Shown one piece after another: positions 1,128-49,746 of a stretch of 52,449 nucleotides of DNA (position 1 is the first letter of the stretch; every line of letters begins with the position of its first letter). Under the pieces are notes generated by a model. The model ran no database searches. It worked only from the letters and a program-made list of their open reading frames with translations, and was not told the origin of the DNA. A program made the translations under genes and the position numbers. The stretch is from Nemertoderma westbladi (Eukaryota > Animalia > Xenacoelomorpha), in contig JAUCBJ010006428.1 in assembly GCA_032718475.1 (NCBI GenBank), positions 1-52,449 of the forward strand, given 5' to 3'.

Positions 1128-4100
1128 CTAGAAAACAAATTTACAGAATAAAAAAATATATAACAATATATTTTGATACAGTTTGGGGTAGGGCGGGTTG
1201 ACCTCAGGTGACTAATGAAATGAATAACAACAGTTATTACAAGCTTTCTCCCAACAGGGCATCTTCAGGTAATTATGGAATCAACATATGAAAAAGAGAA
1301 ACTGCACTAATCTAAGACAGTATGTAATATAAGGTCTACTAACTCAGTACTTTATATTACATAGTCCTGTCTTAGTTTTAGTGCAGTTTCTCATTTTCAT
1401 ATGTTGATTCCATAATTACCTGAAGATGCCCTGTTGGGAGAAAGCTTGTAATAACTGTTGTTATTCATTTCATTAGTCACCTGAGGTCAACATGCCCTAC
1501 CCTATAAACTGTATCAATATGATCACCACGGTGACGAGAGCGAGAGAATTCCCTCATTAACAAGATATTTTATATCTCTAAATATAAGTCAGGTCGGGAT
1601 CATGAGAGAATATCGGGATTCTGGGATTATGATGAGTTAATCCCAGGATTATATTCCTTCTCTAAATAACCTAATATATCGGCCCTTAAATAGTAGTAAA
1701 TGATAGATAGATAGATTTATTTATACATTATGTAAAAACAATAACAAATACACCAAACAATGTACCGGTATAAAGGTATTGTCCAACATAACATATAGGA
1801 TTACCCCTAATCCTAAAGCTTTGCAGCTTATTTCCAAGGGGGTCCTTTATATGTTACTTGGTTACAAATACAATATTACACTACGCTAACCTAAAACCAA
1901 TATAAAACGTAATTACACTATGTACATGTACAACTTTACCAAGAGCGTGACAATGCCAGACTCAACGATAAAGATGTAATGTACAGAACAATTTAATATA
2001 AAACATAATTACAGTATAAATAGTAAATAATTAATAAACTACTAAAATGAGTACAGGAGTTTCCTCTGGGGAGTTTAGTTCTGGGGGGGGGGGGACCTCA
2101 CTGCTTTTAATGTTGATACTCTCAACAAATTATAATACAGAGTGGAACAATTACTTGGCCTAACGAGCCTAAAAGATTACCCCACTCATTTAATGTTGAT
2201 ACTGATTTAGGAAATACTCTTTCTTGTACTGGTGTCAGAAACAAATTTATGTGTAATAGTATGCCGGTAACCTTTGATAAAGACATAATAGTTGTGTTAT
2301 GTCCGTTGAGATATTAGCAATGAGATTTTTTCGGTTGCTGAATAACCCGACGTCTTTATTCAGAGGAAGTAAACATATTTTCAAATACAGTCTACAGTAT
2401 ATTCCAGAATTGATGGGTTGATGGGTGTACCGGTACAGTACACTGTACAGGGTGGTCTGTTCCATTGAACATACTGTAGTCTTATTTTCGTACTGAACCG
2501 CACTTCACTGAAATACTAATGGTATGTAATAACTGTATACGCGTAGCTACGCGTAGGTCGAAAGGGTTTACCCTTAACTACGTTACTGATTACAGTAGGC
2601 CTAGTGCAGTAGTGCTATCAGGCTATACTGTATATCTGTATGTGCGTTTGGTAAAGCTGACAGAGTGACAGGTATATAGACATACAGTACCGTAGTCAGG
2701 CAGTACCGGTAGTCTAACTAAACATGCCAAACTCAGGGAAGCGTAAAGGGGAATCTGCGGAGGAGATAGTGGAAGGCTTCAACGAATTGCGACTGGAACA
2801 ACGGAACTTAATAACGAAGATGAATGAGCTCGAGGCGGAGGTAGACGAACACGAACTGGTTATCACGACACTAAAGAAAACGGACAGCGACAGACGATGC
2901 TTCCGAATGATAGGCGGAGTTCTAGTGGAACGCCAAGTTAAGGATATCCTCCCCTCCTTGGAGTCGCACAAGGAAAACATTAAACAACTCATCGTTAGTC
3001 TAAATACGGCGGCGGAAGGGAAGGGTAAGGAAATGCAGGACTACGTAGCCAAACACGATCTAAAGAGGAATTTATCGATGAATGAGGGAACTAGTAAAGA
3101 GGATGATAAACGAGTTAGCAAAGCAGATGGACCCATCAGTCAGAGCGTTTTAGTAGAGAATGTTGAAGAAATGGATTAATAATATTTCTTTTCTTTTGGT
3201 TTTATAGCATATTTACACGTTATTACAGTATTAAACACACATGAGTTGTACCACTTCCGTGATCGGATTTCCCCAACGTACGGAGGTCGAAGGATGCGGA
3301 TATTTGCGCGAGTTAAGGCTACCTTAAAAGTACTGTAAAACTCTGTGTTTGGCCCTCGTTGTAACTCTCTTTGGCAGCTACCGGTCCCATACCAGCAGCT
3401 AATGGTACAATAAATTATTATACTTCATTCAATTTGTTGTTTGTTTTGCTGCTGTGCATAAAATAATTCCTGCCGTTCCCTATTTATTTGTATTTAATGG
3501 TTTAAACTGAAAATGAAGCGAAACCTTATATTGTAATAATAGAAATAAAAATAGTTTCAACTTGATGGAATATAACTTGATTTTATAAGTCAAAAGTAAT
3601 TTGCAACATGTATGTATGCCGTTTTATTCTATAATTATAATGTTGGAGACAGACATGTTAATTATCAATTAAGGGAAACGAGCAGGTTATGGTGGCACGT
3701 TATTGTAACCAAAACAATAAACGAAAGTCAATTGAATTGGTTGCAGTCTTATATTTGGGAGTAATCAGCTGTTATTTGCGTAAATTTCTCCTTAGAGAAG
3801 GACGAATTTTGATTGCGTCCGCTCCACAGTCTCCAAACCACAATGCAAGTAGAAATGCTAGTTTCACATTGACAGCGGTTGGCCTAAGGATAATCAGGGA
3901 ATGGGGGATGAAGAGTCAGTACGGGCTGCTGTTGAGGAATACAAGACTGAACTCAGCATACGTGAGGTGGCTAAAAGTATAATAATATGTACGAAGTTAC
4001 AGGTTTCAAAGGTTGCGTGTGATAGAACACCAAGGCCTTCGCGCAGCACGAGGCTAAGATCAGAGACCAGGGTATGGGAACCACACTATTGTACTTGGAG

Positions 4101-7100: not shown

Positions 7101-10100
7101 AATCCGAGCGCACATTTAATAATAATTGCGCCACAAGTCCCGGGGTGTCGACACTATTAAAACATGTGTGGATGGCATTTAGTAAAATATATAAAGTCTA
7201 ACAAAAAAGGTGTCAAAAATGGTGTTTGAAAGGGGAAAATGTATGATTTACTTACACTTGACTGCGAGATACTCATTTGTGTTGGGTAACTGTCTCGGTA
7301 GTTCCATATATTTGCATATCCGTTTAATATCGACGAGTCTCTGGGGGTTCCGTTCAACGTTCGACTTGCAGTGGCTGTTGATAAAGAGGAGAGAAGTTCC
7401 GAAGAAATGGAAACATACCCCGATCGCGCCTTTGGTTTTATACATCGTTCCCGCACGGGTAGTCACAGCGGACTGCTCCACAACTAAAATATTAATAGTA
7501 TAACTGTTCTAAAACTAGCTGGAGAACTTGGGGATAATATAACGAGAGGTTGTCTAGCCTTTTACTTAATATTTTTCTTAACATTTATTTCATCATGATA
7601 ATCTGTGTAATCATTATAACGTATATTTATTAAATTATAAATATGAAAAACAATTGGTGAGCGGGGGAGGGATATAAATTGCATTGCAATATCCAAATTG
7701 GTAACAGGCAGCAGGCGTACCTACCAGCTGCCACGCTACCAACCAAAAAGACGGTACTTTATATCCCGGTATTAAAATGCATTTCTATAGGACACTTTAT
7801 CTCCAGAGGGAGTAAAATATCAATCTTGATTTTGCAACTCCCGGCTATAATTCGAATAGTAAGGCAATGTTGCGCCTGTGCTCTGATAGAAGTGGTTAGT
7901 TGTTCCTGTAAACCATGTGAGGGAGGTGCTACTTGTTCTTAACCTTAAGCATATTAAACCACTATTAGGGGCCGTTGTGAATAGGAACAACATCTCACCT
8001 ATTGGGATTCTAGTTTGATTATTGAAACCCAAAACATTAAAACCCACCATTATTTAAAGATTAATTAAAGAAAATCGTTAGAATAAATGTTATACAGCAC
8101 ACAATTTACATATTCATCATAATACGAGAATAGATATAACTTATGATTGTATTGAATACAATACAACATTATTATTATGATATGATATGAGAACATAGAA
8201 TTGTAAACAATAAAATATCAATATAATATAATAAACAAAAGTTTGTTTGGGTTTGATAAACAGTAATCTCCATTAACATCATAAGACGCACCAAACATGG
8301 CCTATTATTTCAATAACAGTTCATTACATAACAATAAACTATAATAATACCGGTAAATAAATAAAATACATTAATATAAAACAAATCCAACCTAACTTGT
8401 TCTACCCTAAACGTAATGTTGTCTGATTCTTTTTCCCTAACTGTGGGCCCTTACCCACGGCGCAATCTAAAGACGCCTTGAGGGATCGTTTATCGAATGT
8501 CTTCTCGCCGGCCATCCTTTCCCGTAGATCCTGTGACGCCTTGGCGAGGGCCCGCAACTCATCCTGGGCAACGGAACGCTGCATCTGTAACGAGGTGTTC
8601 CGCCGATCCTTGTTCTTTATCGTCTCCTCATGCAACATAGTCTTCAACTGGTTATCCTCACGAACTCTCTCGTAATTCTTGCTATGTCGGTATTCCTCCC
8701 CGAAGCGTTTCTGCGCGGTGCGCAACGCGCGTTGCGCCAATAAATCCTCGCTGGCGCGGGTCGCGCGACTCGTCTCGTGGAACCGACGGTCTCGTATCGC
8801 CTGTCGCCATCGATCTTGGTCGCGTTCACGCCCTCGTCTCGCTTCCGCGTTCCGATACGCTTGATCCGCCTTTATAAGAACCCGATCTCGCCGCTGCTGT
8901 TCTACTCGCAGCTGATTGGCTAGCATTAAATCGCGCGCGCGTTCCTCCCGTTCCCCTGCTTCACGTCGCATCTCCAACGCCCTTTGTTCCTTCTCACGTT
9001 CCACCGTTCGCCACCTCCGCATATGCTCCGCAATGCGTTCCTCGTTCTCCACCCGCCGTTTCGCGTTCTCCAACCAGACCCGCTCCTCCCTGTCCTTCGC
9101 TCCGCGTCGCAACTCATCCTTGGAACTCTCTCCCAGTAACTTCCGGTACGATTTCTCCTCAGCCGACATCACCCGCCTACTCTGCAGCGCTCTTTTCTCT
9201 CGATCGTAATCGTCGATGTGTCGCCTCTCCATCCGGTAGTAATAATCCTTGTCTTTCGCTCTCCTATCTGCTGAACTGACGTCGTAGTCATAATGTCGAT
9301 CTAGAGACCGTGAATCACCATGGTCACCGCGGCGGTCATATTTACCCGCGTGAACGATATTATCATCACGATATCTGGTATTGTCATCATGATGTCTGGT
9401 ATTGTCATCACGATATCTGGTATTGTCCTCACGATATCTGGCATTGTCATCACGATATCTGATACTGTCATCACGATATCTGGCATTGTCATCATGATAT
9501 CTGGTATTGTCATGGTATCTGATATTCTCATCAGGATAACTGGTATTGTCATCACGATATCTGGTGTTGTCATCACGATATCTGGTATTATCATCATTAT
9601 TTGCGATATTATTATCATCACGATATCTGGTATTGTCATCACGATATCTGATACTGTCATCACGATATCTGGCATTGTCATCATGATATCTGGTATTGTC
9701 ATGGTATCTGATATTCTCATCAGGATAACTGGTATTGTCATCACGATATCTGGTGTTGTCATCACGATATCTGGTATTATCATCATTATTTGCGATATTA
9801 TTATCATCACGATATCTGGTATTGTCATGGTATCTGGTATTCTCATCGCGATAACTGGTATTCTCATCACGATATCCCTCCTTCCCTCCCCGATATCCCA
9901 CATTAGATTCCCATATCTCATCTACAGAGCGCGGGATATCGCCAGCACTACTTGACCGCCTCAACCCGCCCCCACGACGGTTCCCCTCAACCTCACCTGA
10001 CCAATCAACACTCTTTCCCAATCCCCGCCCTCGCACCACCGGGACCTCCCCATTACTGTCGCTCTCGTACCGCCGCCACGCCGGCTTCCTCCTATTGGAT

Positions 10101-13100
10101 GTCTCCTTGACAACCTCCCATGCATCTTCCCTCCGTTCTACAGGAGTCTCACTAAACTCCTTCCTACTCTTCCCGCCTCTATGGGACCCCGATTTATTAC
10201 CGTGACGAAAATGAGAGGGCGATGTATCTATGACGACGTTATGGGACCGAGAAGGAGTCCCCTTAGCATCTACTTTGCGCATTATATTAGACGGTGTTAG
10301 TCCCCTAGTAGACTCATCGTACACGGACACGCCGTACTTTAGGAAATGCTTCCGATCTTCCTCTAACACCAGGTCCCTTTGTTCCCGACATCTACGTAAC
10401 TTCCTCAACCTCTCCCTTTCGCATTCCTCGTATATAGCGATGATAACACCTCGTGGTTTTCGTAACGGTTTCAGTTCATCCGCAAACTCGCTGTATGGCT
10501 TGTGAAGCAACTCTAGCGGCCGAACCCCGACCCGGGAGCAAGCCTCCAACGAACGGGGACTCGTGAGAACGAACCGACTGTTCTCCGTCCAGGATTCCTC
10601 GAAGTTATACAGATCCAGTTTAGGTATTGGATGCGGCCCGCCTTTATTGCCGTGGTCCACTTTACTCTTGACTGTGGATATATTGCGACGAGTTTTACCC
10701 CGGGAGTCGTTAAACATTTTATTCAATTCGTAATCGTCTACACTACCTGAGGTCACCGTGGCGAACATTGTATCAAACCGCGCGGATGGATTTATAAAAA
10801 GAGAAAACAAATTGGATTAACCTCTGAAATATAGACAAAATACTAAAAACCAAAACGAAAATGAAAGAGAAAATTGTACAATGTATGTTTTTCAGGATTA
10901 AACGTTGGCGAGCTCAACACACTATGTATTGTTGTTGTTTGTAGGTTGTCCTAGTAACCCTGCTATGATTGGTCAATGCTGGTGGAGGAGAGTTGGCAAT
11001 GATTGGCCCGATGAACAGTAGAGGCGGTTATTCTTAAAATGCATTCACAAGCCTTTCTTTCTATATAGGCAATGCGGCATTCTCTGCTGTAGCTGTAGAT
11101 AGGTAGGGATCTATTGGTGCCCAGGATGTGCGTCTTATTTCAGTGGAAGATTATTGTGCTTTATTATACTTAAATCGCCACCCACCCTAAATTATTGAAT
11201 TAGGTCCCAACGTAGTGGTTAAATTCGTTGCATTGAATTCGTAACTCTCAGGAGGTCGTTTCCGCCGTCACTTTTAACGGTTTTTACGTTCACTTTTAAC
11301 AAAACCTACTATGTCTACTACTACTACTACTACTGCCTGTTGGTTTTTCTGTCCGTCCAGCGATCTGTCTGTCAAAGTAATAGGAATAGGAACATACCAA
11401 CTACATAAAAAAAAATGGATATGGGGGTTTTCGTGGTTGGTGATTCTATTTCCGATGTCAGATTTCATGTTTGGCGCCATCCACATTGTCTGTTTTTTCC
11501 GTTCAGCTGTCGGTTAAATTTTGACGGACAAACAGACAGCAATTTAATAAGACATGGCGCTGTCAAATGAGAAAACTGACTTTAGAAATGAAATCATCGA
11601 CCCGGAAACCCCTTGCAATTGTTAGCTGGGTTATGTTTGCATAACATTTGAATGCAGAAACTTTAAATTACACCAAACCATAAACTTTAAATGCGTTTTC
11701 CGAAAAATAATATTAAATTTCAAAATGCAATGTCTTTTCCAAAAATGAAAAAATTTGTGAGAGATTTAGCATGAATGATGACTGGTTGATGCTTAACCCC
11801 CTTATGACTACTTTTTCAAATTTTTTGTTGTAGCTAAAAATTTAACAAAATGTGTCAATTTCTGGTCAAAAATGTGGCAAAAACTATGTTTTTTTAAATA
11901 ATTTTTAAACATGAGCATTTATCACAATTCTGCTCATAGGGTCATTTTATGATGCCATTGTGCACAAATGGTGAAATTTTGGGCACTTGATGACCAACCA
12001 TCTAGAAGCGTTTGCTATAAGAAGACCGTCCATAAACAAACGTAATGTAGTTGGGTCCCTACCCATTGTACAGCTTACAGTCCGAGAGAGAGAAATCTCA
12101 GCGCCTAAAAGTTATTATTAACCTATAAAACATTTGAACGGCCCAGTGCTTGAAATTCAATCAGCTGGCCTCCCACCTAACATAGCCGTGAGCAACCTTA
12201 TAGATGTTCCTATAGGATGCACTGGGAAAAGTATTCAGCTGGCGGACTTGTCTGGGATAGAGTGAGAGAGTAATAAGCTTGGCAAGTAATATACTTACTT
12301 CTCTGCAGTCTGGGCCTATCCATTCAATCAATAGTAGTAGCTTAATAGGCCCACATGAGCACCAGTAGCTGGTGTTTCTATCATTGAGTCTATGCCAAAT
12401 TTCGTGTTATGGGCTATTTTTCGATATACCGATACCGATACCGATTATATTCGGAAAAAAAGACACTTTAATAAATTATTTCGAAACTTTATTTTCACAT
12501 CCTGGGGTTGAGCTGCGTCGATTGATATAACTTTCATTGACGGACGAGCTATAGTTTCGGAGGAGTTCACCCGATATACATATATACATAGATAGATAGT
12601 AAATACTTTTAAGGTATGAAATCCTAACGGTCATCTAATTATGATAATTAGGAAAAAAATTAAAAATTTCCAAAATTTTTTTAAAATTTTTTTTATCCAT
12701 CTATTGTACATACTACATGTGTACCAAATGTCAATAAATTGGCATTGGGGTAAGTGTAGTATAATGCCATAGCCGATGGCCTACTAACTACTTTAGTTGG
12801 ACTAGGTCATGGTGGTACCTTTTATGTAAGTTAACTACGGTGTTTTCTAAATACTCACTGGAACAGAACCAAATAAGATCCCTTCGTATGAACAACGATA
12901 GATAAAGAACTCCATGTAATCCTGAGTGGAGTAGAACATGGGAAGAACCTAGTGTTTCCTGCATTCGAACCTCCCATTCCCTCCTGTAAATTAGTTGAAT
13001 GCGATTAACATTTTATACATTTATTATAGGAAGAAATAACTTATCTTTTATTGGCGCAATTGTGGGTATAATCCCATCACATGCGTACTTTTTAACCGGG

Positions 13101-16100
13101 TAGTGTACAAATTTAGGAATCGCGTAATTTTTCTTGAAATTAATATCTCATATCTCTCCAAACCACGTACGCGTTTCGACCTTACTGGGTCTCATCAGCG
13201 TGGTGTCGGATTCGAACCTGGGACCTCGAGACTCGAAACTCGGGACCTATGTGATGGGATTATACCCACAATTGCGCCAATAAAAGATAAGTTATTTTCG
13301 GTAAAATAAACTTATCATTCGAGGTTAAGACCCCTAGATCCCTTCCTATAATAAATGTATAATAACAAACACCTCGAAAAATACAGCTTGCCAACACATT
13401 GTTACTATCAATTAACATTTTAGCATTTTATGTTCAAAAATGTAAGCAGTAAAGAGAGACAATTACAGTGAAAAATGTGTTATATAGAATATTAAAACAA
13501 CATTCAACGCTAAATGCCATTACAGTTACTGTGAATGGGTATGTATGCCAAACAATTCTACGCGCAAACGTTTATACGTAATTAATTATTCGTGATATTT
13601 ACGGACTTGCTTCTAACAACCATAATGATAACACGGTAAGATAATAATATGTGTAAACGGTACCTATAAACGCTAAATACGTGTAAACGTTACCTATAAA
13701 CGCTAATACGCGTAAACGGTACCTATAAACGCTAATCCGCGTAAACGGAACCTATAAACGCTAATCCGCGTACACGGTACATAAAAGCTAAATACGTGTA
13801 AACTGTACCTATAAACGCTAATACGTGTAAACGTTACCTATAAACGCTAATACGTGTAAACGGTACATAAAAGCTAAATACGTGTAAACGGTACCTATAA
13901 ACGCTAATACGTGTAAACGGTACCTATAAACGCTAAATACGTGTAAACGGTACCTATAAACGCTAATACGTGTAAACGGTACCTTTAAACGCTAAATACG
14001 TGTAAACGGTACATATAAACGCTAATACGTGTAAACGTTACCTATAAACGCTAATACGTGTAAACGGTACATAAAAGCTAAATACGTGTAAACGGTACCT
14101 ATAAACGCTAATACGTGTAAACGTTACCTATAAACGCTAATACGTGTAAACGGTACATAAAAGCTAAATACGTGTAAACGGTACCTATAAACGCTAATAC
14201 GTGTAAACGGTACATAAAAGCTAAATACGTGTAAACGGTACCTATAAACGCTAATACGTGTAAACGGTACCTATAAACGCTAATACGTGTAAACGGTACC
14301 TATAAACGCTAAATACGTGTAAACGGTACCTATAAACGCTAATACGTGTAAACGTTACCTATAAACGCTAATACGTGTAAACGGTACATAAAAGCTAAAT
14401 ACGTGTAAACGTTACCTATAAACGATAATACGTGTAAACGGTACATAAAAGCTAAATACGTGTAAACGGTACCTATAAACGCTAATACGTGTAAACGGTA
14501 CCTATAAACGCTAATACGTGTAAACGGTACCTATAAACGCTAAATACGTGTAAACGGTACCTATAAACGCTAATCCGCGTAAACGGTACATAAAAGCTAA
14601 ATACGTGTAAACTGTACCTATAAACGCTAATACGTGTAAACGTTACCTATAAACGCTAAAACGTGCAAACGGTACCTATAAACGCTAATACGTGTAAACG
14701 GTACATATAAACGCTAATACGTGTAAACGTTACCTATAAACGCTAATACGTGTAAACGGTACCTATAAACGCTAAATACGTGTAAACGTTTCCTATAAAA
14801 GCTAATACGTGTAAACGGTATCTATAAACTCTAAATATGTGTAAACGTTACCTATAAACGCTAATACTTGTAAATGGTACCAATAAACGATAATACGTGT
14901 AAACGTTACCTGCTATAAACGCTAATATGTGTAAACGGTTCCTTTAAAAGCTTAAACGCGTAAACGGTACCGGTACCTATAAACGCTAGTACGTGTAAAC
15001 GAAAGAAAACGGAACCTATAAACTTTCAATTACTTTGTTTCTTGAGACGTTTTTTGAAAATTACATTTCATCAAATATTATTTAGATTTTTGATTTACGG
15101 CGGTTTTTTGGTGTTTGTAATTAGGTGGAATTCATATAAAATAATTTAGAAATTTTAAACTTGTTTTTTTCGGCGGGTGCCATATTTTGGTGCCAGCACC
15201 AAAATTTGAGAATGTCAATTTTGTAAATTGATTGTGTGAAGGCGAACCTGTTTTTTGCGCAATAGGGGTTTTTTGATGGTTTTTGATGATCAATATCCGA
15301 AGTGGATGTAAGCCCCTACAGTATTATAATAATTATTAGTAAATTAAAAATGATTAAAATAATTAAATGGTAAACATATATGAAAGTCGTACGTACATAT
15401 GTATAGGCCTAGTGATAAAAATGTAAAATATTCTCGTGATTATGGGTGTGCATACGGAGAAATCGGGGGCAGTGAATTTAAAAAGAGCGCCAACTCTAGA
15501 GGGTTTGAGCGGGTGTTGAGAGTTGAGCAGACCCAAACATGAGTTACATCGTCTGCTCGCTCATGACACAACGGTGAAATAGGGGTTTATTGGGGTTCTG
15601 GTTTAGATGGAATATGTGCGAGTTGCACCAGTCGTATCAAACTTATATTTTTCGGCGCAGGGTACAAAATTTGGTTATCGCACGAAATTTTGAAGATCCT
15701 TTCAATATTTATTTCTCGTATTTTAGAGGTTTATGGCGGTTCTGAATTCAATATAATAAATAATTATCTAACTAGACATCTCAAACATGTATTTTTCGGA
15801 AGTGGGTGTAAAATTTGGTGCTAGCACTACATTTTGTAACCCATAAAATATATAAATTGTGTCATCAATTATGTGTCCCCTAGTTTCTTGCGTTATACGG
15901 GTTTGTGAGGGTCCTGAACCTTGTATTTTTCGGCGGTGGGTGAAAAGTTTTGTGCCATCGGCACAAATTTTTGAAAATAAGCAAATGGATCAATAGATAG
16001 TATCATCTTGTTTCTTGTTATACGGGTTTATGAGGGTCCTGAATCCGATGCAATCAATAAAAACAGCACTGAACATCTCAAAGTTGTACTTTTGGTGATG

Positions 16101-19100: not shown

Positions 19101-22100
19101 AATTACACTTAAATTCAATACAGCAATCCTAATTTTAATATGTGAAAAATCTTCGCTAACATTAAAGGAAAATATTACCCTTCCCTGCAGTAGAATTATA
19201 TAAAATTTTTTTACATATTTAAAAATTAGATGCGACATCTGGTTACCGAGATATAGCAATTAATATGTAACACGCCAGTGGAAATATTATTAATTTCCCA
19301 TTGAATCACAGCTTATTGTGAAATTAATTAAATTATTCTGGTATATTACTAATTTGCTACTTGTATTGCTACTTTTCCCTACTGTTCCTTATGTTTGGCT
19401 TGTGTTATGCAAATTTACGCAGAATTTCCATGAATAAACATATGATCCGCAAAATAAAATTTTATAGACTTTTTTGTGGCATTCGCAAGGTAAATATAGA
19501 ATCCAAAATATGTGGTTCGGATTAATTGCGAAATACTTTTCGGGTTTTTTTTTGCTAGATTGACTCGACTAACTTACCATGATAAAAAAATCACCCTGAT
19601 AAATATATAATAATTGAGAGTTTTGGAATCACATCCATGTTTTTTAATCAGGATAACAACTTTGATAATGTTTAGTCTTATATTCAATTAACACCAAAAA
19701 AAGGTGACATTTATTATACTTATTACATGTAGATGTTACACGTTGTTCATGTTCAATGACTGAGCACCGACTAATTAACAAATTTATGAGAGATTCATTG
19801 ACCAGCTACAGACAGACCAATATTGTGACATATATTTTAGTTTAATGTTTGATTCAATTAGAGGCACAAATTAAAAAGGCTACAAATATATAGGGAGGGG
19901 TGAATAATTAAATTAGTCACCCATTAAAAGGTAGCCAAATATAAGTTGCAATCTACATAAATTTTTAAATTCAGTAGTGTGCGTGTGTTGTGTATTGATT
20001 CCGCAGATTTCATAATGAAAAAGCGTTCACTAATTCAAGATGTTACATATAAATAATAATAAATAAAATTATACTTGTTATCTCTATTAACTGTTTTCCA
20101 CTTCATCGAAAACGAGTTATACATGTGCGAAATTTGCAATTTTTGATGAAATGCAGGCAGATGCACCAAATACTACCGCGGTACGGATATTATTTGCGAA
20201 CATTGTTTATTATATAAATACTATCTATACTTTACTTCATGCTAACCAGCCGAGGTACCTCCGATAACTAACCTGTAATTATTCCTAATAGACGGCAAAA
20301 AGTTAAATATATAATTTAAACATTTATTCGAATAGTGTGCCTGAATATATACTGTAGTAGTATAGTTTTTTTACTAGATAAATTCTAGTATAGTAGTAGA
20401 TAAGTATAGGTTAGTAGTAGATAAAGTACAGTATAGTAGTAGATAAAGTACAGTATAGTAGTAGATAAAGTATAGTATGGTAGTAGATAAAGTATAGTAT
20501 AGTAGTAGATAAGTATAGGTTAGTAGTAGATAAAGTACAGTATAGTAGTAGATAAAGTACAGTATAGTAGTAGATAAAGTATAGTATGGTAGTAGATAAA
20601 GTATAGTATAGGAGTAGATAAAATATAGTATAGTAGTAGATAAAATATAGTATAGTAGTAGATAAAGTATAGTATAGTAGTAGATAAAGTACAGTATAGT
20701 AGTAGATAAAGTACAGTATAGTAGTCGTTAAAGTATAGGTTAGTAGTAGATAAAGTATAGTATATTAGTAAATAAAGTATAGTATAGTAGTAGATAAAGT
20801 ACAGTATAGTAGTAGATAAAGTACAGTATAGTAGTCGTTAAAGTATAGGTTAGTAGTAGATAAAATATAGTATAGTAGTAGATAAAATATAGTATAGTAG
20901 TAGATAAAGTATAGTATGGTAGTAGATAAAGTATAGTATAGTAGTAGATAAAATATAGTATAGTAGTAGATAAAATATAGTATAGTAGTAGATAAAGTAT
21001 AGTATGGTAGTAGATAAAGTATAGTATAGTAGTAGATAAAATATAGTATAGTAGTAGATAAAGTATAGTATAGTAGTAGATAAAGTAAATTTTAATAGTA
21101 TATAAAGTATAGTATAGTAGTAGATAAAGTATAGTATAGTTAGTAGATAAAGTATAGGTTAGTAGTAGATAAAGTATAGTATAGTAGTAGATAAAGTAAA
21201 TTTTAATAGTAGATAAAGTATAGTATAGTAGTAGATAAAGTATAGTATAGTAGTAGATAAAGTATAGTATAGTAGTAGATAAGTATAGGTTAGTAGTAGA
21301 TAAAGTATAGGTTAGTAGTAGATAAAGTATAGTATGGTAGTAGATAAAGTATAGTATAGTAGTAGATAAAGTATAGTATAGTAGTAGATAAAGTATAGTA
21401 TAGTAGTAGATAAGTATAGGTTAGTAGTAGATAAAGTATAGGTTAGTAGTAGATAAAGTATAGTATAGTAGTAGATAAAGTATAGTATAGTAGTAGATAA
21501 GTATAGGTTAGTAGTAGATAAAGTATAGGTTAGTAGTAGATAAAGTATAGTATGGTAGTAGATAAAGTATAGTATAGTAGTAGATAAAGTATAGTATGGT
21601 AGTAGATAAAGTATAGTATAGTAGTAGATAAAATATAGTATAGTAGTAGATAAAGTATAGTATAGTAGTAGATAAAGTAAATTTTAATAGTAGATAAAGT
21701 ATAGTATAGTAGTAGATAAATTATAGTATAGTAGTAGATAAGTATAGGTTAGTAGTAAATAAAGTATAGTATAGTAGTAGATAAAGTATAGTATAGTAGT
21801 AGATAAAGTATAGTATAGTAGTAGATAAAGTATAGTTTAGTAGTAGATAAAGTAAATTTTAATAGTAGATAAAGTATAGTATAGTAGTAGATAAAGTATA
21901 GTATAGTAGTAGATAAAGTATTGTATAGTAGTAGATAAAGTATAGTATAGTAGTAGATAAAGTATAGGTTAGTAGTAGATAAAGTATAGTATAGTAGTAG
22001 ATAAAGTAAATTTTAATAGTAGATAAAGTATAGTATAGTAGTAGATAAAGTATAGTATAGTTAGTAGATAAAGTATAGGTTAGTAGTAGATAAAGTATAG

Positions 22101-25100
22101 TATAGTAGTAGATAAAGTATAGTATAGTTAGTAGATAAAGTATAGTATGGTAGTAGATAAAGTATAGTATGGTAGTAGATAAAGTATAGTATAGTAGTAG
22201 ATAAAGTATAGTATGGTAGTAGATAAAGTATAGTATAGTAGTAGATAAAATATAGTATAGTAGTAGATAAAGTATAGTATAGTAGTAGATAAAGTAAATT
22301 TTAATAGTAGATAAAGTATAGTATAGTAGTAGATAAATTATAGTATATAGTAGTAGATAAGTATATGTTAGTAGTAAATAAAGTATAGTATAGTAGTAGA
22401 TAAAGTATAGTATAGTAGTAGATAAAGTATAGTATAGTAGTAGATAAAGTATAGTTTAGTAGTAGATAAAGTAAATTTTAATAGTAGATAAAGTATAGTA
22501 TAGTAGTAGATAAAGTATAGTATAGTAGTAGATAAAGTATTGTATAGTAGTAGATAAAGTATAGTATAGTAGTAGATAAAGTATAGGTTAGTAGTAGATA
22601 AAGTATAGTATAGTAGTAGATAAAGTATAGTATAGTAGTAGATAAATTATAGTATAGTAGTAGATAAGTATAGGTTAGTAGTAAATAAAGTATAGTATAG
22701 TAGTAGATAAAGTATAGTATAGTAGTAGATAAAGTATAGTATAGTAGTAGATAAAGTATAGTTTAGTAGTAGATAAAGTAAATTTTAATAGTAGATAAAG
22801 TATAGTATAGTAGTAGATAAGTATAGTAGTAGATAAGTATAGGTTAGTAGTAGATAAAATATAGTATAGTAGTAGATAAAATATAGTATAGTAGTAGATA
22901 AAGTATAGTATAGTAGTAGATAAGTATAGGTTAGTAGTAGATAAAATATAGTATAGTAGTAGATAAAGTATAGTATAGTAGTAGATAAAGTAAATTTTAA
23001 TAGTAGATAAAGTATAGTATAGTAGTAGATAAAGTATAGTATAGTTAGTAGATAAAGTATAGGTTAGTAGTAGATAAAGTATAGTATGGTAGTAGATAAA
23101 GTATAGTATAGTAGTAGATAAAGTATAGTATGGTAGTAGATAAAGTATAGTATAGTAGTAGATAAGTATAGTAGTAGATAAGTATAGGTTAGTAGTAGAT
23201 AAAATATAGTATAGTAGTAGATAAAGTATAGTATAGTAGTAGATAAAATATAGTATAGTAGTAGATAAAGTATAGTATAGTAGTAGATAAAGTATAGTAT
23301 AGTAGTAGATAAGTATAGGTTAGTAGTAGATAAAATATAGTATAGTAGTAGATAAAGTATAGTATAGTAGTAGATAAAGTAAATTTTAATAGTAGATAAA
23401 GTATAGTATAGTAGTAGATAAAGTATAGTATAGTAGTAGATAAAGTATAGTATAGTAGTAGATAAGTATAGGTTAGTAGTAGATAAAATATAGTATAGTA
23501 GTAGATAAAGTATAGTATAGTAGTAGATAAAATATAGTATAGTAGTAGATAAAGTATAGTATAGTAGTAGATAAAGTATAGTATAGTAGTAGATAAAGTA
23601 TAGTATAGTAGTAGATAAAGTATAGTATAGTAGTAGATAAAGTATAGTATAGTAGTAGATAAAGTATAGTATAGTTAGTAGATAAAGTATAGGTTAGTAG
23701 TAGATAAAGTATAGTATAGTAGTAGATAAAGTAAATTTTAATAGTAGATAAAGTATAGTATAGTAGTAGATAAGTATAGGTTAGTAGTAGATAAAGTATA
23801 GGTTAGTAGTAGATAAAGTATAGTATGGTAGTAGATAAAGTATAGTATAGTAGTAGATAAAGTATAGTATGGTAGTAGATAAAGTATAGTATAGTAGTAG
23901 ATAAATATAGTATAGTAGTAGATAAAGTATAGTATAGTAGTAGATAAAGTAAATTTTAATAGTAGATAAAGTATAGTATAGTAGTAGATAAATTATAGTA
24001 TAGTAGTAGATAAGTATAGGTTAGTAGTAAATAAAGTATAGTATAGTAGTAGATAAAGTATAGTATAGTAGTAGATAAAGTATAGTATAGTAGTAGATAA
24101 AGTATAGTTTAGTAGTAGATAAAGTAAATTTTAATAGTAGATAAAGTATAGTATAGTAGTAGATAAAGTATAGTATAGTAGTAGATAAAGTATAGTATAG
24201 TAGTAGATAAGTATAGTAGTAGATAAGTATAGGTTAGTAGTAGATAAAGTATAGTATAGTAGTAGATAAAGTATAGTATAGTAGTAGATAAGTATAGTAG
24301 TAGATAAGTATAGTTAGTAGTAGATAAAGTATAGTATAGTAGTAGATAAAGTATAGTATAGTAGTAGATAAAGTATAGTATAGTAGTAGATAAAGTATAG
24401 TATAGTAGTAGATAAAGTATAGTATAGTAGTAGATAAGTATAGGTTAGTAGTAGATAAAGTATAGTATAGTAGTAGATAAAGTATAGTATAGTAGTAGAT
24501 AAAGTAAATTTTAATAGTAGATAAAGTATAGTATAGTAGTAGATAAAGTATAGTATAGTAGTAGATAAAGTATAGGTTAGTAGTAGATAAAGTATAGTAT
24601 AGTAGTAGATAAAGTATAGTATAGTAGTAGATAAAGTATAGTATAGTAGTAGATAAAGTATAGTATAGTAGTAGATAGTATAGTATAGTATAGTAGTAGT
24701 ATAAAGTATAGTATAGTAGTAGATAAAGTATAGTATAGTAGTAGATAAAGTATAGTATAGTAGTAGATAAAGTATAGTATAGTAGTAGATAAAGTATAGT
24801 ATAGTAGTAGATAAGTATAGTATAGTAGTAGATAAAATATAGTATAGTAGTAGATAAAGTATAGTATAGTAGTAGATAAAGTATAGTTTAATAGTAGATA
24901 AAGTATAGTATAGTAGTAGATAAAGTATAGTATAGTAGTAGATAAAGTATAGTATAGTAGTAGATAAGTATAGGTTAGTAGTAGATAAAGTATAGTATAG
25001 TAGTAGATAAAGTATAGTATAGTAGTAGATAAAGTATAGTATAGTAGTAGATAAAGTATAGTATAGTAGTAGATAAAGTATAGTATAGTAGTAGATAAAG

Positions 25101-28100
25101 TATAGTATAGTAGTAGATAAAGTATAGTATAGTAGTAGATAAAGTATAGTATAGTAGTAGATAAAGTAAAGTTAATAGTAGATAAAGTATAGTATAGTAG
25201 TAGATAAAGTATAGTATAGTAGTAGATAAGTATAGGTTAGTAGTAGATAAAGTATAGTATAGTAGTAGATAAAGTATAGTATAGTAGTAGATAAAGTATA
25301 GTATAGTAGTAGATAAGTATAGGTTAGTAGTAGATAAAGTATAGTTAGTAGTAGATAAAGTATAGTATAGTAGTAGATAAAGTATAGTATAGTAGTAGAT
25401 AAAGTATAGTATAGTAGTAGATAAAGTATAGTATAGTAGTAGATAAAATATAGTATAGTAGTAGATAAAGTATAGTATAGTAGTAGATAAAGTAATTTTA
25501 ATAGTAGATAAAGTATAGTATAGTAGTAGATAAAGTATAGTATAGTAGTAGATAAGTATAGGTTAGTAGTAGATAAAGTATAGTATAGTAGTAGATAAAG
25601 TATAGTATAGTAGTAGATAAAGTATAGTATAGTAGTAGATAAAGTATAGTATAGTAGTAGATAAAGTATATTTTAGATAGTAGATAAAGTATAGTATAGT
25701 AGTAGATAAAGTATAGTATAGTAGTAGATAAAGTATAGTATAGTAGTAGATAAAGTATAGTATAGTAGTAGATAAAGTATAGGTTAGTAGTAGATAAAGT
25801 ATAGTATAGTAGTAGATAAAGTATAGTATAGTATAGATAAAGTATAGTATAGTATAGATAGTATAGTATAGTATAGTAAGTATAGTTAGTAGTAGTAAGT
25901 ATAGTTAGTATAGATAAAGTATAGTTAGTAGTAGATAAAGTATAGTATAGTAGTAGATAAAGTATAGTATAGTAGTAGATAAAGTATAGTATAGTAGTAG
26001 ATAAAGTATAGTATAGTAGTAGATAAAGTATAGTATAGTAGTAGATAAAGTATAGTATAGTAGTAGATAAAGTATAGTATAGTAGTAGATAAAGTATAGT
26101 ATAGTAGTAGATAAAGTATAGTATAGTAGTAGATAAAGTATAGTTATAGTAGATAAAGTATAGTATAGTAGTAGATAAAGTATAGTATAGTAGTAGTAAG
26201 TATAGTTAGTAGTAATAAAGTATAGTATAGTAGTAGATAAAGTATAGTATAGTAGTAGATAAAGTATAGTATAGTATAGTATAGTATAGTATAGTATAGT
26301 ATAGTATAGTATAGTATAGTATAGTATAGTATAGTATAGTAGTAGATAAAGTATAGTATAGTAGTAGATAAAGTATAGTATAGTAGTAGATAAAGTATAG
26401 TATAGTAGTAGATATAGTATAGTATAGTAGTAGATAAAGTATAGTATAGTAGTAGATAAAGTATAGTATAGTAGTAGATAAAGTATAGTATAGTAGTAGA
26501 TAAGTATAGTATAGTAGTAGATAAAGTATAGTATAGTAGTAGATAAAGTATAGTATAGTAGTAGATAAAGTATAGTATAGTAGTAGATAAAGTATAGTAT
26601 AGTAGTAGATAAAGTATAGTATAGTAGTATAGTATAGTATAGTATAGTATAGTATAGTATAGTATAGTATAGTATAGTAGTAGATATAAGTATAGTATAG
26701 TAGTAGATAAAGTATAGTATAGTAGTAGTATAGTATAGTATAGTATAGTATAGTATAGTATAGTAGTAGTAAAGTATAGTATAGTAGTAGATAAAGTATA
26801 GTATAGTAGTAGTATAGTATAGTATAGTAGTAGTATAGTATAGTATAGTAGTAGATAAAGTATAGTATAGTAGTAGATAAAGTATAGTATAGTAGTAGTA
26901 TAGTATAGTATAGTATAGTATAGTATAGTATAGTAGTAGTATAGTATAGTATAGTAGTAGATATAGTATAGTATAGTAGTAGATATAAGTATAGTATAGT
27001 AGTAGATAAAGTATAGTATAGTAGTAGATATAGTATAGTATAGTAGTAGTATAGTATAGTATAGTAGTAGATATAGTATAGTATAGTATAGTATAGTATA
27101 GTATAGTAGTAGTATAGTATAGTATAGTATAGTATAGTATAGTATAGTAGTAGTATAGTATAGTATAGTATAGTATAGTATAGTATAGTATAGATAATAG
27201 TATAGTATAGTATAGTATAGTATAGTATAGTATAGTATAGTATAGTATAGTTAGTATAGTATAGTATAGTATAGTAGTAGTATAGTATAGTATAGTATAG
27301 TATAGTATAGTATAGTATAGTATAGTATAGTATAGTATAGTATAGTATAGTATAGTAGTAGTATAGTATAGTATAGTATAGTATAGTATAGTATAGTATA
27401 GTATAAAGTATAGTATAGTATAGTAAGTATAGGTATAGTATAGTATAGTATAGTATAGTATAGTATAGTATAGTATAGTATAGTATAGTATAGTATAGTA
27501 TAGTATAGTATAGTATAGTATAGTATAGTATAGTATAGTATAGTATAGTATAGTATAGTATAGTATAGTATAGTAGTAGTATAGTATAGTATAGTATAGT
27601 ATAGTATAGTATAGTATAGTAGTAGTATAAAGTATAGTATAGTATAGTATAAAGTATAGTATAGTATAGTATAGTATAGTATAGTAGTAGTATAGTATAG
27701 TATAGTATAGTATAGTATAGTATAGTATAGTATAGTATAGTATAGTATAGTATAGTATAGTATAGTATAGTATAGTATAGTATAGTATAGTATAGTATAG
27801 TATAGTATAGTATAAGTATAGTATAGTATAGTATAGTATAGTATAGTATAGTATAGTATAGTATAGTATAGTATAGTAGTATATAAAGTATAGTATAGTA
27901 GTAGTATAGTATAGTATAGTAGTAGTATAGTATAGTATAGTATAGTATAGTATAGTATAGTATAGTATAGTATAGTATAGTATAGTATAAAGTATAGTAT
28001 AGTATAGTAAATAGTATAGTATAGTATAGTATAGTATAGTATAGTAGTAGTATAGTATAGTATAGTAGTAGTATAGTATAGTATAGTATAGTATAGTATA

Positions 28101-31100
28101 GTATAGTATAGTATAGTATAGTATAGTATAGTATAGTATAGTATAGTATAGATATAGTATAGTATAGTATAGTATAGTATAGTATAGTATAGTATAGTAT
28201 AGTATAGTATAGTATAGTATAGTTAGTATAGTATAGTATAGTATGGTATAGTATAGTATAGTATAGTATAGTATAAAGTATAGTATAGTAGTAGTATAAA
28301 GTATAGTATAGTATAGTATAGTATATTTTAGTATAGTATAGTATAGTATAGTATAGTATAGTATAGTATAGTATAGTATAGTATAGTATAGTATAGTATA
28401 GATATAGTATAGTATAGTATAGTATAGTATAGTATAGTAGTAGTATAGTATAGTTAGTATAGATATAGTATAGTATAGTATAGTATAGTATAGTATAGTA
28501 TAGTATAGTATAGTATAGTAGTAACCCAGACCGGACTCACCCAGACCGGACTCAACCAGACCGGACTCACCCAGACCGGACTCACCCGGACCGGACTCAC
28601 CCAGAGCGGACTCACCCAGAGCGGACTCCAGGACCGGACTCATTCAGACCGGACTCACCCAGACCGGACTCGACCAGACCGGACTCACCTGGACCGGACT
28701 CACTCAGACCGGACTCACCCAGACCGGACTCACCCAGACCGGACTCACCCAGACCGGACTCACCCAGACCGGACTCACCCAGACCGGACTCACCCTGACC
28801 GGACTCACCCAGACCGGACTCACCTCGACCGGAATCACCCAGATCGGACTCACCCAGACCGGACTCACCCAGACCGAACTCACCTGGACCGGACTCACCT
28901 GGACCGGACTCACCCAGACCGAACTCACCCAGAGCGGACTCACCCAGACCGAACTCACCCAGACCGGACTCACCTGGACCGAGCTGATTTTACTGTTATC
29001 GGACGAAGTAAACTGGAGGTCGACATAGAGGTACTTATACTTTCCACATCGGATTCCAAGTCTGAGGTTTGGCGATCCGATTTAAATCTGAGTAGATTAG
29101 GTAAACTGCGGCGTAGAGACGGAACCGCAATCTTCAATCCACCGGAAGCTAAAAATAAACAATCAAGCAATTATTGGCAAACACAATTTAAATCAGAGTC
29201 ATTATTCAGTCTCATTTATTGATATTTACATAATATATAGACACGACCAATACAAAAGTATAAAAATTTTATAGGCAATTCTTTAAACTTATCTTACTTT
29301 TCAATATTTGTGATTTAATCACAATTTATATATATATATATTAATTTAAATATAATTTATCCAGCGTTAGTCGTCAGATTTACAGCCATGTTTCCCCTTT
29401 GCAGCACGGGGAGCTCCTCGATAGTGGCAAAGGATGTTGGCCCTTAAAAGGGCCGTTTTGGTTTGAGTTCAGTTTGATTATGCCACAGAATCACGACCTC
29501 TCTCTAAAAGTAACATCTCTGATCCTGTCAACCATACGTTTTTCTTCAGAGTCATCGAAGATTGCACTGGAACTTGTCATTTTAATTACTTCTGTTAGGC
29601 CTAATTCAGTAAAATTACCAAAGAAACACTACAGCACTAATACCGGTAACTGAATACTGTAATATATTGCAATACAGCAAAAGTCAGGCAGTAATAACTG
29701 TTTAAACAGGGCTGCAACCTGCAAAGCTGATGACTAACGCTGGATAAATTATATTTTTTTAAAATTGTGATTAAATCACAAATATTGAAAAGTAAGATAG
29801 GTTTAAGAATTGCCTATAAAATTTGTATACTTTTGTATTGGACCCTAAATTTTTGCATGCAAGCTCAGAATTAAATTATCTTTCGAATGGTATATTACTA
29901 CTAAGGTCATGCATGTCTGACAGTTTTGGCTGGCCAGGGGGGTGGGGGGATCATTATGGAACACCCGGTATATCTGCCCAGTTACAGCTGAAATGGATAA
30001 CAAATAACGAAATGAGAGAAGGTTTTTACTTTCAGATATTTCGATCTCTACCGGTATACTGTAGAAGTGTTATGGAGTACCGTCCAACAAAGAAGTTTTT
30101 TAGAACATGGGCTGTCTGTCCACCATGCTTATTTATTCCATCCCATCATAGTAGACATGTACCGAACAACAAGAGTCCCACAAGAAATGAAAACAAATAA
30201 GTTGGTGCCAGTTCCCAAGAAGGGCAACCTAACACTCTATGGTTCTTTTCGGGGAATCTCATTGATCTCGATTGCTGCAAAGCTATACAATAGGATTCTA
30301 TTAAATCGCACCAGGGATCCCATTGAGAGACTGCTCCGTGGAAATCAGAATGGGTTCCGTAAAGGTCGTGGGACCATGGAGCCCATTTTGGCACTTAGAA
30401 GGATAATTGAAGAATTATCAAAAAAGAAAGACAGGCATATCTGGCTGTTATCTTTGTTGACTTCTTCAAGGCCTTTGATTCAGTCTCTCGCTCACGTATG
30501 TTCAGCATACTTTCATTACATGGGATTCCTGATGAAATTATTGCAGCAATCAGATCAGTATACGATGGTTCGACAACATTTGTGTCTACTGTTGACGGTG
30601 ACACAGAACCATTTGAAGTGTTATGGGGCGTCCTCCAAGGAGACACACTTGCACCATTCTTGTTCATTATTGTAGTTGACTATGTTCTACGCATGTCCTT
30701 AGATCATCATAATGATGATGGGGTGATGATAACTCCACCTACTGGCTCCAGAAGTCGAGGAAATCCTGCCAAGTACCTAACTGATCTAGACTTTGCTGAT
30801 GACTTAGGAGTACTCTCAGAATCATTAGAGGGAGCCCAACGGCTCCTCAGCTCATTAGAACATGCTGCTTCTAGTGTTGGTCTTTTTATTAACTCCAGAA
30901 AGACCAAAATTCTGACAGTTAACTTTGAAAGTCCTCAGCAAGTCTCTGATTGGATGAGCATAAGCTCAAAGGATGGTATGCTTGAACATGTGGACGACTT
31001 CTGTTACCTGGGATCATGGATCCGGAAGTCAGGTGAGGACCTTCGAATACGTAAGGGAAAGGCATGGGCAGCCTTGAATAGGCTTTCCAGGATTTGGAAG

Positions 31101-36983: not shown

Positions 36984-37871
36984 CACCATGCCCCGGAATA
37001 TAGAGACGTAATTCAATGACACGACCCCAACCCCACCCCCCTATTTTGTCTACAAATCTTAATGAGATTGCATGAAATTTGAAACAGAGATAGTTTCACT
37101 TCCCGACCACTTAGCGGGTGAGCCGTAATTTTTATTTTTGTTTTCAATCTTTAGCTACAAGCATTTGAAAAAAGTGTCTCCGGTGAAATTGTTGCACCAG
37201 TCACACCACAGTTATTCTTCAACCTCATAGTGATTTATTGGTATTGTTAGAAAGATGACAATGATTCGAAATATGTATGAATTTCGTCGTAAATAGCTGT
37301 GATATGGGAGTTCAAAAGTTGCATGGTTTTGCATCTGCGCTAGGCTATTTTATTATATTTAATAAATGCATTATTAGAACATTTCATTTATCCAATACGT
37401 AGCTGGGCAGTGCATTACATCTTTAATCATACTATTACGTAGCTATTCATATCTTAACATAATGTTCCAGAATATGGTTTATTATTTAATAGAACAAAAT
37501 AACCTATCCTCGCACAGACAAAACCATGGAACATTTGAACGCTCAGATCTCTGCTATTTCTCAACCAAATTCAAATATTTTTACATATTTGCAATCCTTG
37601 CACGGCCAGCTTTCTAACAGTACCAATAAACAGCTACAAAGTAGAGGAATAATTGCGGTGCAACTAGTGCAATATTGCCGGAGACACTTTTTTAAACGCT
37701 TGTAGCTAAAGATTGAAAGCAAAATAAAAATTCTGGCTCACCCAGACAGTGGTGGGGAGGTGAAACTATCTCTGTTTCAAATTTCCTGCAATCTCATTAA
37801 GATTTGTAGAAATTTTTTTTTTTGGGGGGGGGGGGTGTCACTGAATTACGACATTATTCCGAGGCGTGGTG
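36984..37871. mobile_element. Foldback/MITE with ~400-bp imperfect inverted arms, CACCATG termini and TA flanks
   Basis: TA-CACCATGCCCCGGAATA...TATTCCGAGGCGTGGTG-TA. The arms are mutually complementary. Confidence 0.85.
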
Positions 37872-38046
37872 TAAGTAGGCCTAAACTCAGTACGTCAAAT
37901 TATATTTAAATCGAGGCTATAATTCAGATCAATATTCAGTAAACTAATAAATCGTTTTTTTTTCTACACAAACCTTCTGCAGTAGATTAGGATTGTATAC
38001 TAAATAGCACAATAAATAAACGCTCAGTTTTATATGCTGTAGGCCT

Positions 38047-43900: not shown

Positions 43901-44509
43901 GGAAACATAAAAAATCAATGTAATGGAAATTACTTTGAAATTTAATTTCACATTAACGACTTTGACAAAAAAAAGTGACTTACAACAAATAAAATTTAAT
44001 AAAGATCAGTAGAAATAACATTCCATACTTTTAAAATAGAGCTCCTTAATTGCACCATTATTTCTATATTTAACAGATTTAGTTAACCGTCCAGGTACTT
44101 TACACCTCAGTACATGTCCTCCTTATCCTTTGTTATTTTAATGACATATTCGCAAAAATACATTGCAGTAACATATTATTATGAACGATAATTACTGGAA
44201 AACAAGTTTGATTTATGCGTTACTACCCCTATCCGTGTTGTTTCTGGACGTTGAACTTGTCATTACTGCCTCGTACAATTCGTTAGGATTATTTGATAAA
44301 AATACTATCATGATGGATTGACAAACTAAAAACTCACACTACTTGAGTTGAATCGTGGATATTTCGTAATGTTAGGCTAATATTAAAATTTATATAAATA
44401 TAGTGGGGCAGCATAACATCACAGCGTGTGAGCATGATTTATTATGGTAGTAATGCTATTAACTATAGTTACAAACTATCCATGAATAGAGTAGTAAATC
44501 AGATACAAG

Positions 44510-49658: not shown

Positions 49659-49746
49659 TATCCCTGCAATATCAGAAATTCTTTCACAAGCCGAACGTTA
49701 TGTAACAATGTTATTTATTAATAGTATTCCAGAATAAGTTAGCATA

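What the first reader, a model, noticed from the sequence alone, without database searches (positions are those of the whole stretch)
13016..13360. tRNA-headed hammerhead ribozyme element in sense orientation just upstream of an INPP5E 3' splice site
Seen: a textbook minimal hammerhead at 13204-13162 (minus) with all core nucleotides and a GUA site (cleavage between 13168 and 13167). A perfect Pol III B box lies 3 nt upstream of it and an A-box-like motif further up, all wrapped in an inverted duplication of the element's 5' part. Known: minimal type I hammerheads with a palindromic stem III occur in Penelope-like elements, non-LTR retrozymes and Schistosoma Sm-alpha repeats, and usually cleave as dimers. 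Inference: this is a non-autonomous Pol III SINE/retrozyme family, possibly undescribed. It lies on the pre-mRNA strand about 180 nt upstream of the exon 5 acceptor, so it could cut the host intron.
Basis: partly seen in the sequence, partly recalled or inferred. Interest (0 to 1): 0.8.

Follow-up and report, generated by a model that had tools for sequence, protein, structure and literature searches.

The report
Polymorphic tRNA-headed hammerhead retrozyme insertion
This is one recent insertion, present in one sampled animal and absent in another, of an abundant 411-base non-coding jumping repeat that carries a predicted self-cutting hammerhead RNA behind a tRNA-like promoter, a design known from blood flukes; its mirror-image layout suggests a Penelope-type enzyme likely pasted it, and it probably does little to the host gene.

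Summary
The hammerhead and B box are real and at the stated places (0 descriptor hits in 600 shuffles). It belongs to a young repeat of order 10^3 copies (rough); one contig gives a closed 411-nt unit. The inverted arm copies the element's 3' part, not its 5' part. The proposed A box is antisense body sequence; the family's A box lies in a 99-nt head missing from this copy. The ribozyme is the canonical retrozyme type, not the minimal Penelope type. The layout (head-to-head inverted copy, one-sided 51-nt tail, ATT target, 7 further head-to-head junctions among 15 shown) matches Penelope-like insertions. Verdict: a new member of the Sm-alpha-like non-LTR retrozymes, likely moved by a Penelope-like element; partner, expression and cleavage untested. 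A lone copy is predicted to cut the INPP5E intron poorly. The scan has already noted 411/412-nt elements of this design elsewhere in this genome.

The parts
13016..13410 (-). Whole insertion, 395 nt, 38% GC, absent in sample S2
   Evidence: X3 contig runs 12712-13003 then 13411-13660 without a gap (record 17); X2 contig leaves the window at 13411 (record 16); GC
13411..13422 (+). Target-site duplication, 12 nt, begins with ATT (copy upstream on the pre-mRNA)
   Evidence: exact 12-nt match to 13004-13015
13004..13015 (+). Target-site duplication, downstream copy; holds a branch-point-like YTRAY with its A at 13005, 21 nt from the acceptor
   Evidence: branch-point role inferred
13249..13410 (+). 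Inverted, 5'-truncated copy of the unit's 3' part (162 nt), head-to-head with the main copy, ending at the family's main terminus
   Evidence: X5 contig order; many contigs leave the element at 13406-13412 with long, unlike flanks
13360..13410 (+). One-sided 51-nt tail (22 A, 13 C) between the secondary and main ends
   Evidence: secondary ends at 13353-13355 in other copies (table 7)
13231..13248 (-). 18-nt junction insert, an imperfect copy of the B-box region, private to this copy
   Evidence: depth drop at 13228-13260
13208..13230 (-). Surviving 3' half of the tRNA-like head (part of anticodon arm, variable loop, B box 13218-13208); the A box is lost
   Evidence: loose ends behind 13230 in X1-X3
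13162..13204 (-). Canonical type I hammerhead, predicted cut 13168/13167; no other letter reaching 3% of depth in X1-X3 and none in the X5 contig
13034..13161 (-). Body of the main (sense) copy; 13082-13034 pairs with 13249-13297; both arms share three letters that differ from at least 98% of family depth
   Evidence: table 3
13016..13033 (-). 3' end of the sense copy, after a 44-nt internal deletion; ends near the secondary terminus
12858..12983 (-). INPP5E coding exon downstream; host intron 17006-12984 (4023 nt)

Best explanation
This is a recent, presence/absence-polymorphic copy of an abundant 411-nt non-coding repeat with a tRNA-like head followed by a canonical type I hammerhead (an Sm-alpha-like non-LTR retrozyme), likely pasted by the reverse transcriptase-endonuclease of a Penelope-like element (PLE). 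Shown: insert limits, 12-nt TSD, empty allele, many other copies, unit order, head-to-head inversion, one-sided tail. Inferred cycle: intact head-to-tail copies are read by Pol III from A and B boxes; hammerheads pair up through the palindromic stem III and cut multimers to unit length, which may close into circles. A PLE protein nicks AT-rich DNA at ATT on both strands and starts cDNA at two internal sites about 50 nt apart. The two cDNAs are joined head-to-head. The template was uncut or re-ligated RNA, because the copy runs through the cleavage site into the head. This copy lost its A box and is likely a dead end. In the INPP5E pre-mRNA it is predicted to cut slowly; any splicing effect more likely comes from the 70-bp fold-back that ends 8 nt upstream of the putative branch A.
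For: Empty site in S2 and exact 12-nt TSD. Summed contig depth 2e5-9e5 inside against 25-48 in flanks; rough bounds 740-33,000 copies, about 1,600-2,100 after allowing for contig overlap (the tool warns depth is no copy number). 1342, 3174 and 1771 contigs laid in X1-X3. The X5 contig of 441 nt overlaps itself by 30 nt, giving a closed 411-nt unit with 99 nt not in the window. Loose ends behind 13230 agree in X1-X3 (agreement 0.80-0.91); the X2 consensus reads as an exact TGGCNNAGTGG A box 42 nt before the B box, tRNA-like spacing (consensus recalled). A joint 13230/13408 in S2 DNA reads as head-to-tail. 7 of the 15 joints shown (77 in all) are other head-to-head junctions, 4 of them in both samples. 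Both arms share three rare letters, so one source template. PLE hallmarks in print: inverted 5'-truncated copy and one-sided tail (PMC8557442), head-to-head junctions and 8-10 bp TSDs (PMC3846280), ATT cleavage, two internal RT starts and unprocessed template (PMC11167929).
Against: No partner PLE was found or could be searched for (no genome held). The tail is 51 nt against the 30-40 nt reported, and it does not fold as a stem-loop (-1.5 kcal/mol) as the PAc start site does. The 411-nt unit rests on one contig from a run only guessed to be RNA and labelled as another organism. The main end lies in an A-rich tract, as a LINE-mobilised SINE's would. A T4 run at 13295-13298 could stop Pol III before the tail. 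Joint sides are short (23-50 nt) at 82% likeness. No covariation was seen: no hammerhead position varies at 3% or more. An unreviewed scan note (e1-10596620) reports a 412-nt array joined to a LINE tail.
Confidence: 0.68

Rival explanations
1. Same retrozyme family, but moved by a LINE (RTE, L2 or CR1 type); the inversion arose by twin priming on a multimeric or circular RNA.
For: 12-nt TSD, AT-rich target and an A-rich end fit target-primed reverse transcription; RTE-like RT remnants lie in the window (30016-31568); scan note e1-10596620 (unchecked) describes a LINE-tail fusion.
Against: Both arms end at recurrent family termini about 50 nt apart and overlap in sequence; classical twin priming (recalled) gives non-overlapping segments and one fixed 3' end. 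Head-to-head junctions are frequent (7 of 15 shown). blastn found no sequence shared with the window's LINE pieces.
Confidence: 0.13
2. The sequence is the terminal repeat (pLTR) of a coding PLE with a tRNA-derived promoter, and the short copies are its truncation products.
For: All insertion hallmarks are those of PLEs; an ATG-started 19-codon frame spans the tail, as PLE ORFs begin in the pLTR and tail (PMC3846280); unreviewed scan notes found this in other genomes (e1-8796959, e1-9598556, e1-8842326); the 2026 preprint derives retrozymes from pLTRs.
Against: The X5 contig closes as a 411-nt unit with no ORF; DNA loose ends at both ends of the missing piece agree with that contig at 13230 and begin like it at 13412; the hammerhead is canonical, not the PLE minimal type. 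A 19-codon frame is within chance.
Confidence: 0.12
3. A MITE or fold-back DNA transposon that captured a hammerhead-SINE fragment.
For: Perfect inverted arms of 49+21 nt.
Against: The arms are not terminal (51 nt more on one side), are internal parts of a colinear 411-nt unit, and junction positions differ from copy to copy.
Confidence: 0.03
4. The insertion matters for the host: it cuts or mis-splices INPP5E pre-mRNA enough to lower expression (this can hold together with the best explanation).
For: Sense orientation, intact core, stem I probability about 0.9 while only 7-30 nt past the ribozyme are made; abundant family RNA could supply the dimer partner in trans; a long hairpin abuts the putative branch point; retrozymes are depleted from introns in Xenopus.
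Against: Stem I probability falls to 0.07-0.13 in the full intron context; an axolotl hammerhead with 1 bp plus palindromic tetraloop cleaves 6% in 1 h as a monomer (PMC7229834); hammerhead-cut introns were still spliced (as reported in PMC2995048); the TSD keeps the acceptor region intact; the S1 contig is unbranched from 13386 to 13660, which suggests, but does not show, a homozygous carrier.
Confidence: 0.12

Closest known systems
Sm-alpha / Sj-alpha SINE-like hammerhead retroposons of Schistosoma (passages in PMC6765202, and PMC2770079; original papers not read)
   Same: tRNA-derived Pol III-type promoter followed by a type I hammerhead, tandem units, thousands of copies; single copies lose the promoter.
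   Different: Another animal lineage; 411-nt unit; B box only 3 nt from stem I and overlapping its predicted distal extension; parent tRNA looks different (loop with UCC by eye, untested; Sm-alpha is linked to tRNA-Gln). Sequence homology to Sm-alpha was not tested.
Metazoan non-LTR retrozymes (Cervera and de la Pena 2020, PMC7229834, parts 1-3 of 6 and passages; Li et al. 2026, 10.64898/2026.07.22.740005, parts 1-3 of 5 and passages; supplements not seen)
   Same: Canonical type I hammerhead, unit within 150-450 bp, GC under 45%, no LTR or ORF seen, TSD longer than 4 bp, PLE mobilisation proposed.
   Different: Neither main text holds 'Pol III' or 'polymerase III'; Li et al. has no 'tRNA' and argues from co-occurrence and pLTR similarity, not from insertion junctions. 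Circular RNA is not shown here.
EN+ Penelope-like elements (PMC8557442 passages, PMC3846280 passages, PMC11167929 parts 1-2 of 4)
   Same: Inverted 5'-truncated copy head-to-head, one-sided tail, TSD of about 10 bp, AT-rich ATT target, two internal ends.
   Different: No RT or GIY-YIG ORF, canonical rather than minimal hammerhead, tail 51 nt rather than 30-40 nt, tRNA-like head.

Membership tests
Canonical metazoan type I hammerhead | Core CUGANGA, GAAA, UH | tested here: met
Canonical metazoan type I hammerhead | Helix I 6 bp, helix II 4 bp, helix III 1-2 bp with palindromic loop (PMC4209133) | tested here: met
Canonical metazoan type I hammerhead | Loop 1 - loop 2 tertiary contact | tested here: inconclusive
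   loop 2 and a distal stem I align to HH9, but the internal loop is 2 nt shorter
Canonical metazoan type I hammerhead | Rfam gathering score | tested here: not met
   best 26.6 bits against 52 for HH9
Canonical metazoan type I hammerhead | Self-cleavage | not testable with these tools
   needs an in vitro assay
Minimal PLE hammerhead (min-HHR) | Helix II 7-8 bp, helix I 4-5 bp, extra base 5' of stem II | tested here: not met
Non-LTR retrozyme | Multi-copy unit of 150-450 bp with type I hammerhead, low GC, no LTR or ORF | tested here: met
   411-nt unit, 38% GC, many copies; 39 of 411 nt were never seen
Non-LTR retrozyme | Head-to-tail tandem copies in DNA | tested here: inconclusive
   one head-to-tail joint in S2 and matching loose ends; no array seen directly; arrays reported only in unreviewed scan notes
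Non-LTR retrozyme | TSD longer than 4 bp | tested here: met
   12 nt with empty allele
Non-LTR retrozyme | Expressed as unit-length linear and circular RNA | tested here: inconclusive
   self-overlapping X5 contig fits a circle or a tandem; the run is only guessed to be RNA
Sm-alpha-type tRNA-headed SINE | A and B boxes at tRNA spacing upstream of the hammerhead | tested here: met
   for the family, from loose ends; this copy lacks the A box
Sm-alpha-type tRNA-headed SINE | Pol III transcription | not testable with these tools
   no raw RNA reads listed
Sm-alpha family proper | Sequence homology to Sm-alpha | not tested
   no Sm-alpha sequence was fetched
PLE-mobilised element | Inverted 5'-truncated copy, head-to-head | tested here: met
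   this copy and 7 of 15 joints shown
PLE-mobilised element | 30-40 nt tail at one end between two RT start sites | tested here: inconclusive
   one-sided tail present but 51 nt; two end clusters seen
PLE-mobilised element | AT-rich (ATT) target with TSD | tested here: met
PLE-mobilised element | Partner PLE sharing cis sequence | not testable with these tools
   no genome held; no match in the window
MITE | Terminal inverted repeats at both ends | tested here: not met
   arms are internal and unequal

The most novel reading that the evidence does not exclude
An active Penelope-dependent SINE: a Pol III circular-RNA retrozyme whose polymorphic insertions record a Penelope enzyme priming both target strands at two fixed internal sites on uncut or re-ligated RNA. 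That would be junction-level evidence for how animal retrozymes move, so far argued from co-occurrence and pLTR similarity.
Probability: 0.45. Interest if true: 0.6.

Novelty: new member of a known kind. Interest (0 to 1): 0.4.

Why it matters
How animal non-LTR retrozymes are copied into DNA is still inferred, not shown (PMC7761336 passages; Li et al. 2026). A young family with filled and empty alleles, fixed ends and recurrent inverted junctions makes the Penelope hypothesis testable from one long-read genome, and names the RNA segment (the 51-nt tail) to test with a PLE protein. It also extends the Schistosoma promoter-plus-hammerhead design to another lineage. The locus offers a natural filled/empty pair for asking whether an intronic retrozyme affects splicing, though a large effect is unlikely.

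Tried and rejected
No whole genome held, so no direct copy count, array search or PLE search. ARAGORN found no tRNA in the window. Rfam at gathering level: none. A B-box-plus-hammerhead pattern gave 0 hits in viral contigs and 11 in metagenome contigs, none a hammerhead: 3 of 11 are bacterial-type tRNAs followed by a chance match, the rest chance. Family-specific patterns gave 0 in prokaryote genomes and 0 in viral contigs. No RNA holder on record was listed, which says nothing on expression. X1 had no cover at 12700-12996, so its right junction was not seen, and its left-junction contig has only 25 nt on the element side, under the tool's 31-nt rule. Covariation could not be tested: aligned copies were not obtainable and no hammerhead position varied at 3%. 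The A box at 13279 was rejected as the family promoter; that it substitutes in this copy is not excluded. MITE rejected. An AC-rich stem-loop at the tail was not supported. Host: an animal; androglobin's best hits are hemichordates at 50-57%; species not established. A xenacoelomorph is my untested guess, and a paper search on that name plus hammerhead gave 1 unrelated paper. Not-in-print claim rests on searches (0 papers), 53 and 66; Repbase/Dfam and subscription papers were not searchable. PMC3365414 and PMC10886601 (passages) added nothing.
Full report
Observation. The minus strand at 13204-13162 holds a complete type I hammerhead: 6-bp stem I, CUGAUGA, 4-bp stem II, GAAA, palindromic ACGCGU stem III and a GUA site. 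It is the only hit in the window and 600 shuffles gave none. Rfam sees it weakly (HH9, E=2e-4, below gathering). The B box at 13218-13208 is exact and unique. It is sense to INPP5E, 184 nt upstream of the exon at 12983-12858 in a 4023-nt intron. By PMC4209133 (part 1 and passages) these helix lengths define the canonical metazoan form, not the minimal Penelope form.

True limits. A 12-nt direct repeat flanks 13016-13410. In sample S2 one contig runs 12712-13003 and continues at 13411, and a second run of that sample leaves the window at 13411. This is the empty site, 407 nt shorter with one copy of the repeat. S1 has the element-flank junction, with 25 nt on the element side, and may be the window's source. 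So the insertion is polymorphic and recent.

Family. Summed contig depth is 2e5-9e5 over the insert against 25-48 in the flanks in X1-X3. Overlapping contigs inflate this; my bounds are 740-33,000 copies, about 1,600-2,100 after a slope correction, and the tool warns that depth is no copy number. Dozens of contigs leave the element with long, unlike flanks. The single X5 contig (441 nt) reads 13356-13249, then 13083-13230, then 99 nt absent from the window, then 13412-13327. Its ends overlap by 30 nt, so the unit is a closed 411 nt, either a tandem or a circle. In hammerhead sense the order is tRNA-like head, hammerhead, body, tail. Loose ends behind 13230 agree across X1-X3 and contain an A box 42 nt before the B box. 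No hammerhead position varies at 3% of depth, so the family is homogeneous and covariation could not be assessed.

Anatomy of this copy. On the pre-mRNA strand: TSD, an inverted 162-nt piece of the unit's 3' part (13410-13249), an 18-nt junction resembling the B-box region, the sense copy from mid-head (13230) through the hammerhead to 13034, a 44-nt deletion, 18 nt more, TSD. Both arms share three letters that differ from 98% or more of family depth, so they came from one source. The inverted arm ends at the family's main terminus (13406-13412, running a few bases into an A-rich tract). The sense arm ends near a second cluster (13353-13355 in other copies), leaving a one-sided 51-nt tail. Of 15 joints shown (77 found), 7 are other head-to-head junctions, 1 another inversion, 1 head-to-tail, 6 same-orientation.

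Mechanism. These features match Penelope-like insertions: an inverted 5'-truncated copy with a one-sided 30-40 nt tail (PMC8557442 passages), head-to-head junctions with 8-10 bp TSDs (PMC3846280 passages), cleavage of both strands at ATT and RT starting at two internal sites on unprocessed RNA (PMC11167929 parts 1-2). The TSD here begins with ATT. The copy crosses the intact cleavage site, so the template was uncut or re-ligated. Pol III transcription, dimer cleavage (stem III duplex -7.5 kcal/mol), circularisation and the PLE partner are inferred, not shown. Against: the tail is longer than reported and does not fold, the end is A-rich, a T4 run precedes the tail, and no partner could be searched for.

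Host effect. Stem I forms with probability about 0.9 for a short window during transcription and 0.07-0.13 afterwards; the minimum-energy fold of the whole insert is a long hairpin without stem I. A monomer with such a weak stem III cleaved 6% in 1 h in axolotl (PMC7229834), and hammerhead-cut introns were still spliced while a fast HDV ribozyme blocked splicing (as reported in PMC2995048 passages; originals not read). The acceptor and a branch-point-like motif survive in the downstream TSD. I rate a meaningful effect at about 0.12; the hairpin next to the putative branch point is the likelier route.

Comparison and novelty. A tRNA-derived promoter followed by a hammerhead in tandem SINE-like units is the Sm-alpha design. 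Non-LTR retrozymes are widespread in animals, with PLEs proposed as movers, and a 2026 preprint supports this by co-occurrence and pLTR phylogeny (supplements closed and may bear on this). I found no paper on this family, nor relatives in viral, metagenome or prokaryote collections. Unreviewed scan notes already describe 411/412-nt tRNA-headed hammerhead units on other pieces of this genome; I could not confirm by sequence that they are the same family (empty), and my reading was fixed before I saw them. Verdict: new member of a known kind, interest 0.4; its value is the junction evidence for PLE mobilisation.

Noticed in passing
window 38020-42879 (+): Androglobin encoded as one unbroken frame of about 1,610 codons (Pfam; best hits hemichordates); androglobin is multi-exon in vertebrates (recalled), so wholesale intron loss or a retrogene.
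   Followed up: partly
window 47640-49697 (-): Polycystin-2-like channel in one frame of 686 codons, also apparently without introns.
   Followed up: partly
window 8405-10816 (-): An 804-codon frame nested in an INPP5E intron on the same strand, with a 21-nt tandem repeat inside; no Pfam hit.
   Followed up: partly
window 2718-3176 (+): Single-frame prefoldin subunit 2 nested antisense in the last detected INPP5E intron.
   Followed up: partly
window 1186-1502 and 29247-29841: Other fold-back inserts (125-nt arms 98% complementary; 45+43-nt arms); no TSD of 8 nt or more, no B box and no hammerhead found.
   Followed up: partly
window 30016-31841 and 46890-47438: Decayed RTE-like RT pieces (label from my recall of the motifs), the first with an inverted 3' segment.
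   Followed up: no
window 13645-14971 and 20375-28523: Minisatellites of 29 nt (46 copies) and 22 nt (379 copies, 8 kb, almost no C on the plus strand); the first lies 220 nt from the insertion.
   Followed up: no
window 44500-46450, 37031-37860: A dispersed repeat family in nested inverted arrangements (204-nt arms at 45090-45293 / 45708-45911, 97%).
   Followed up: no
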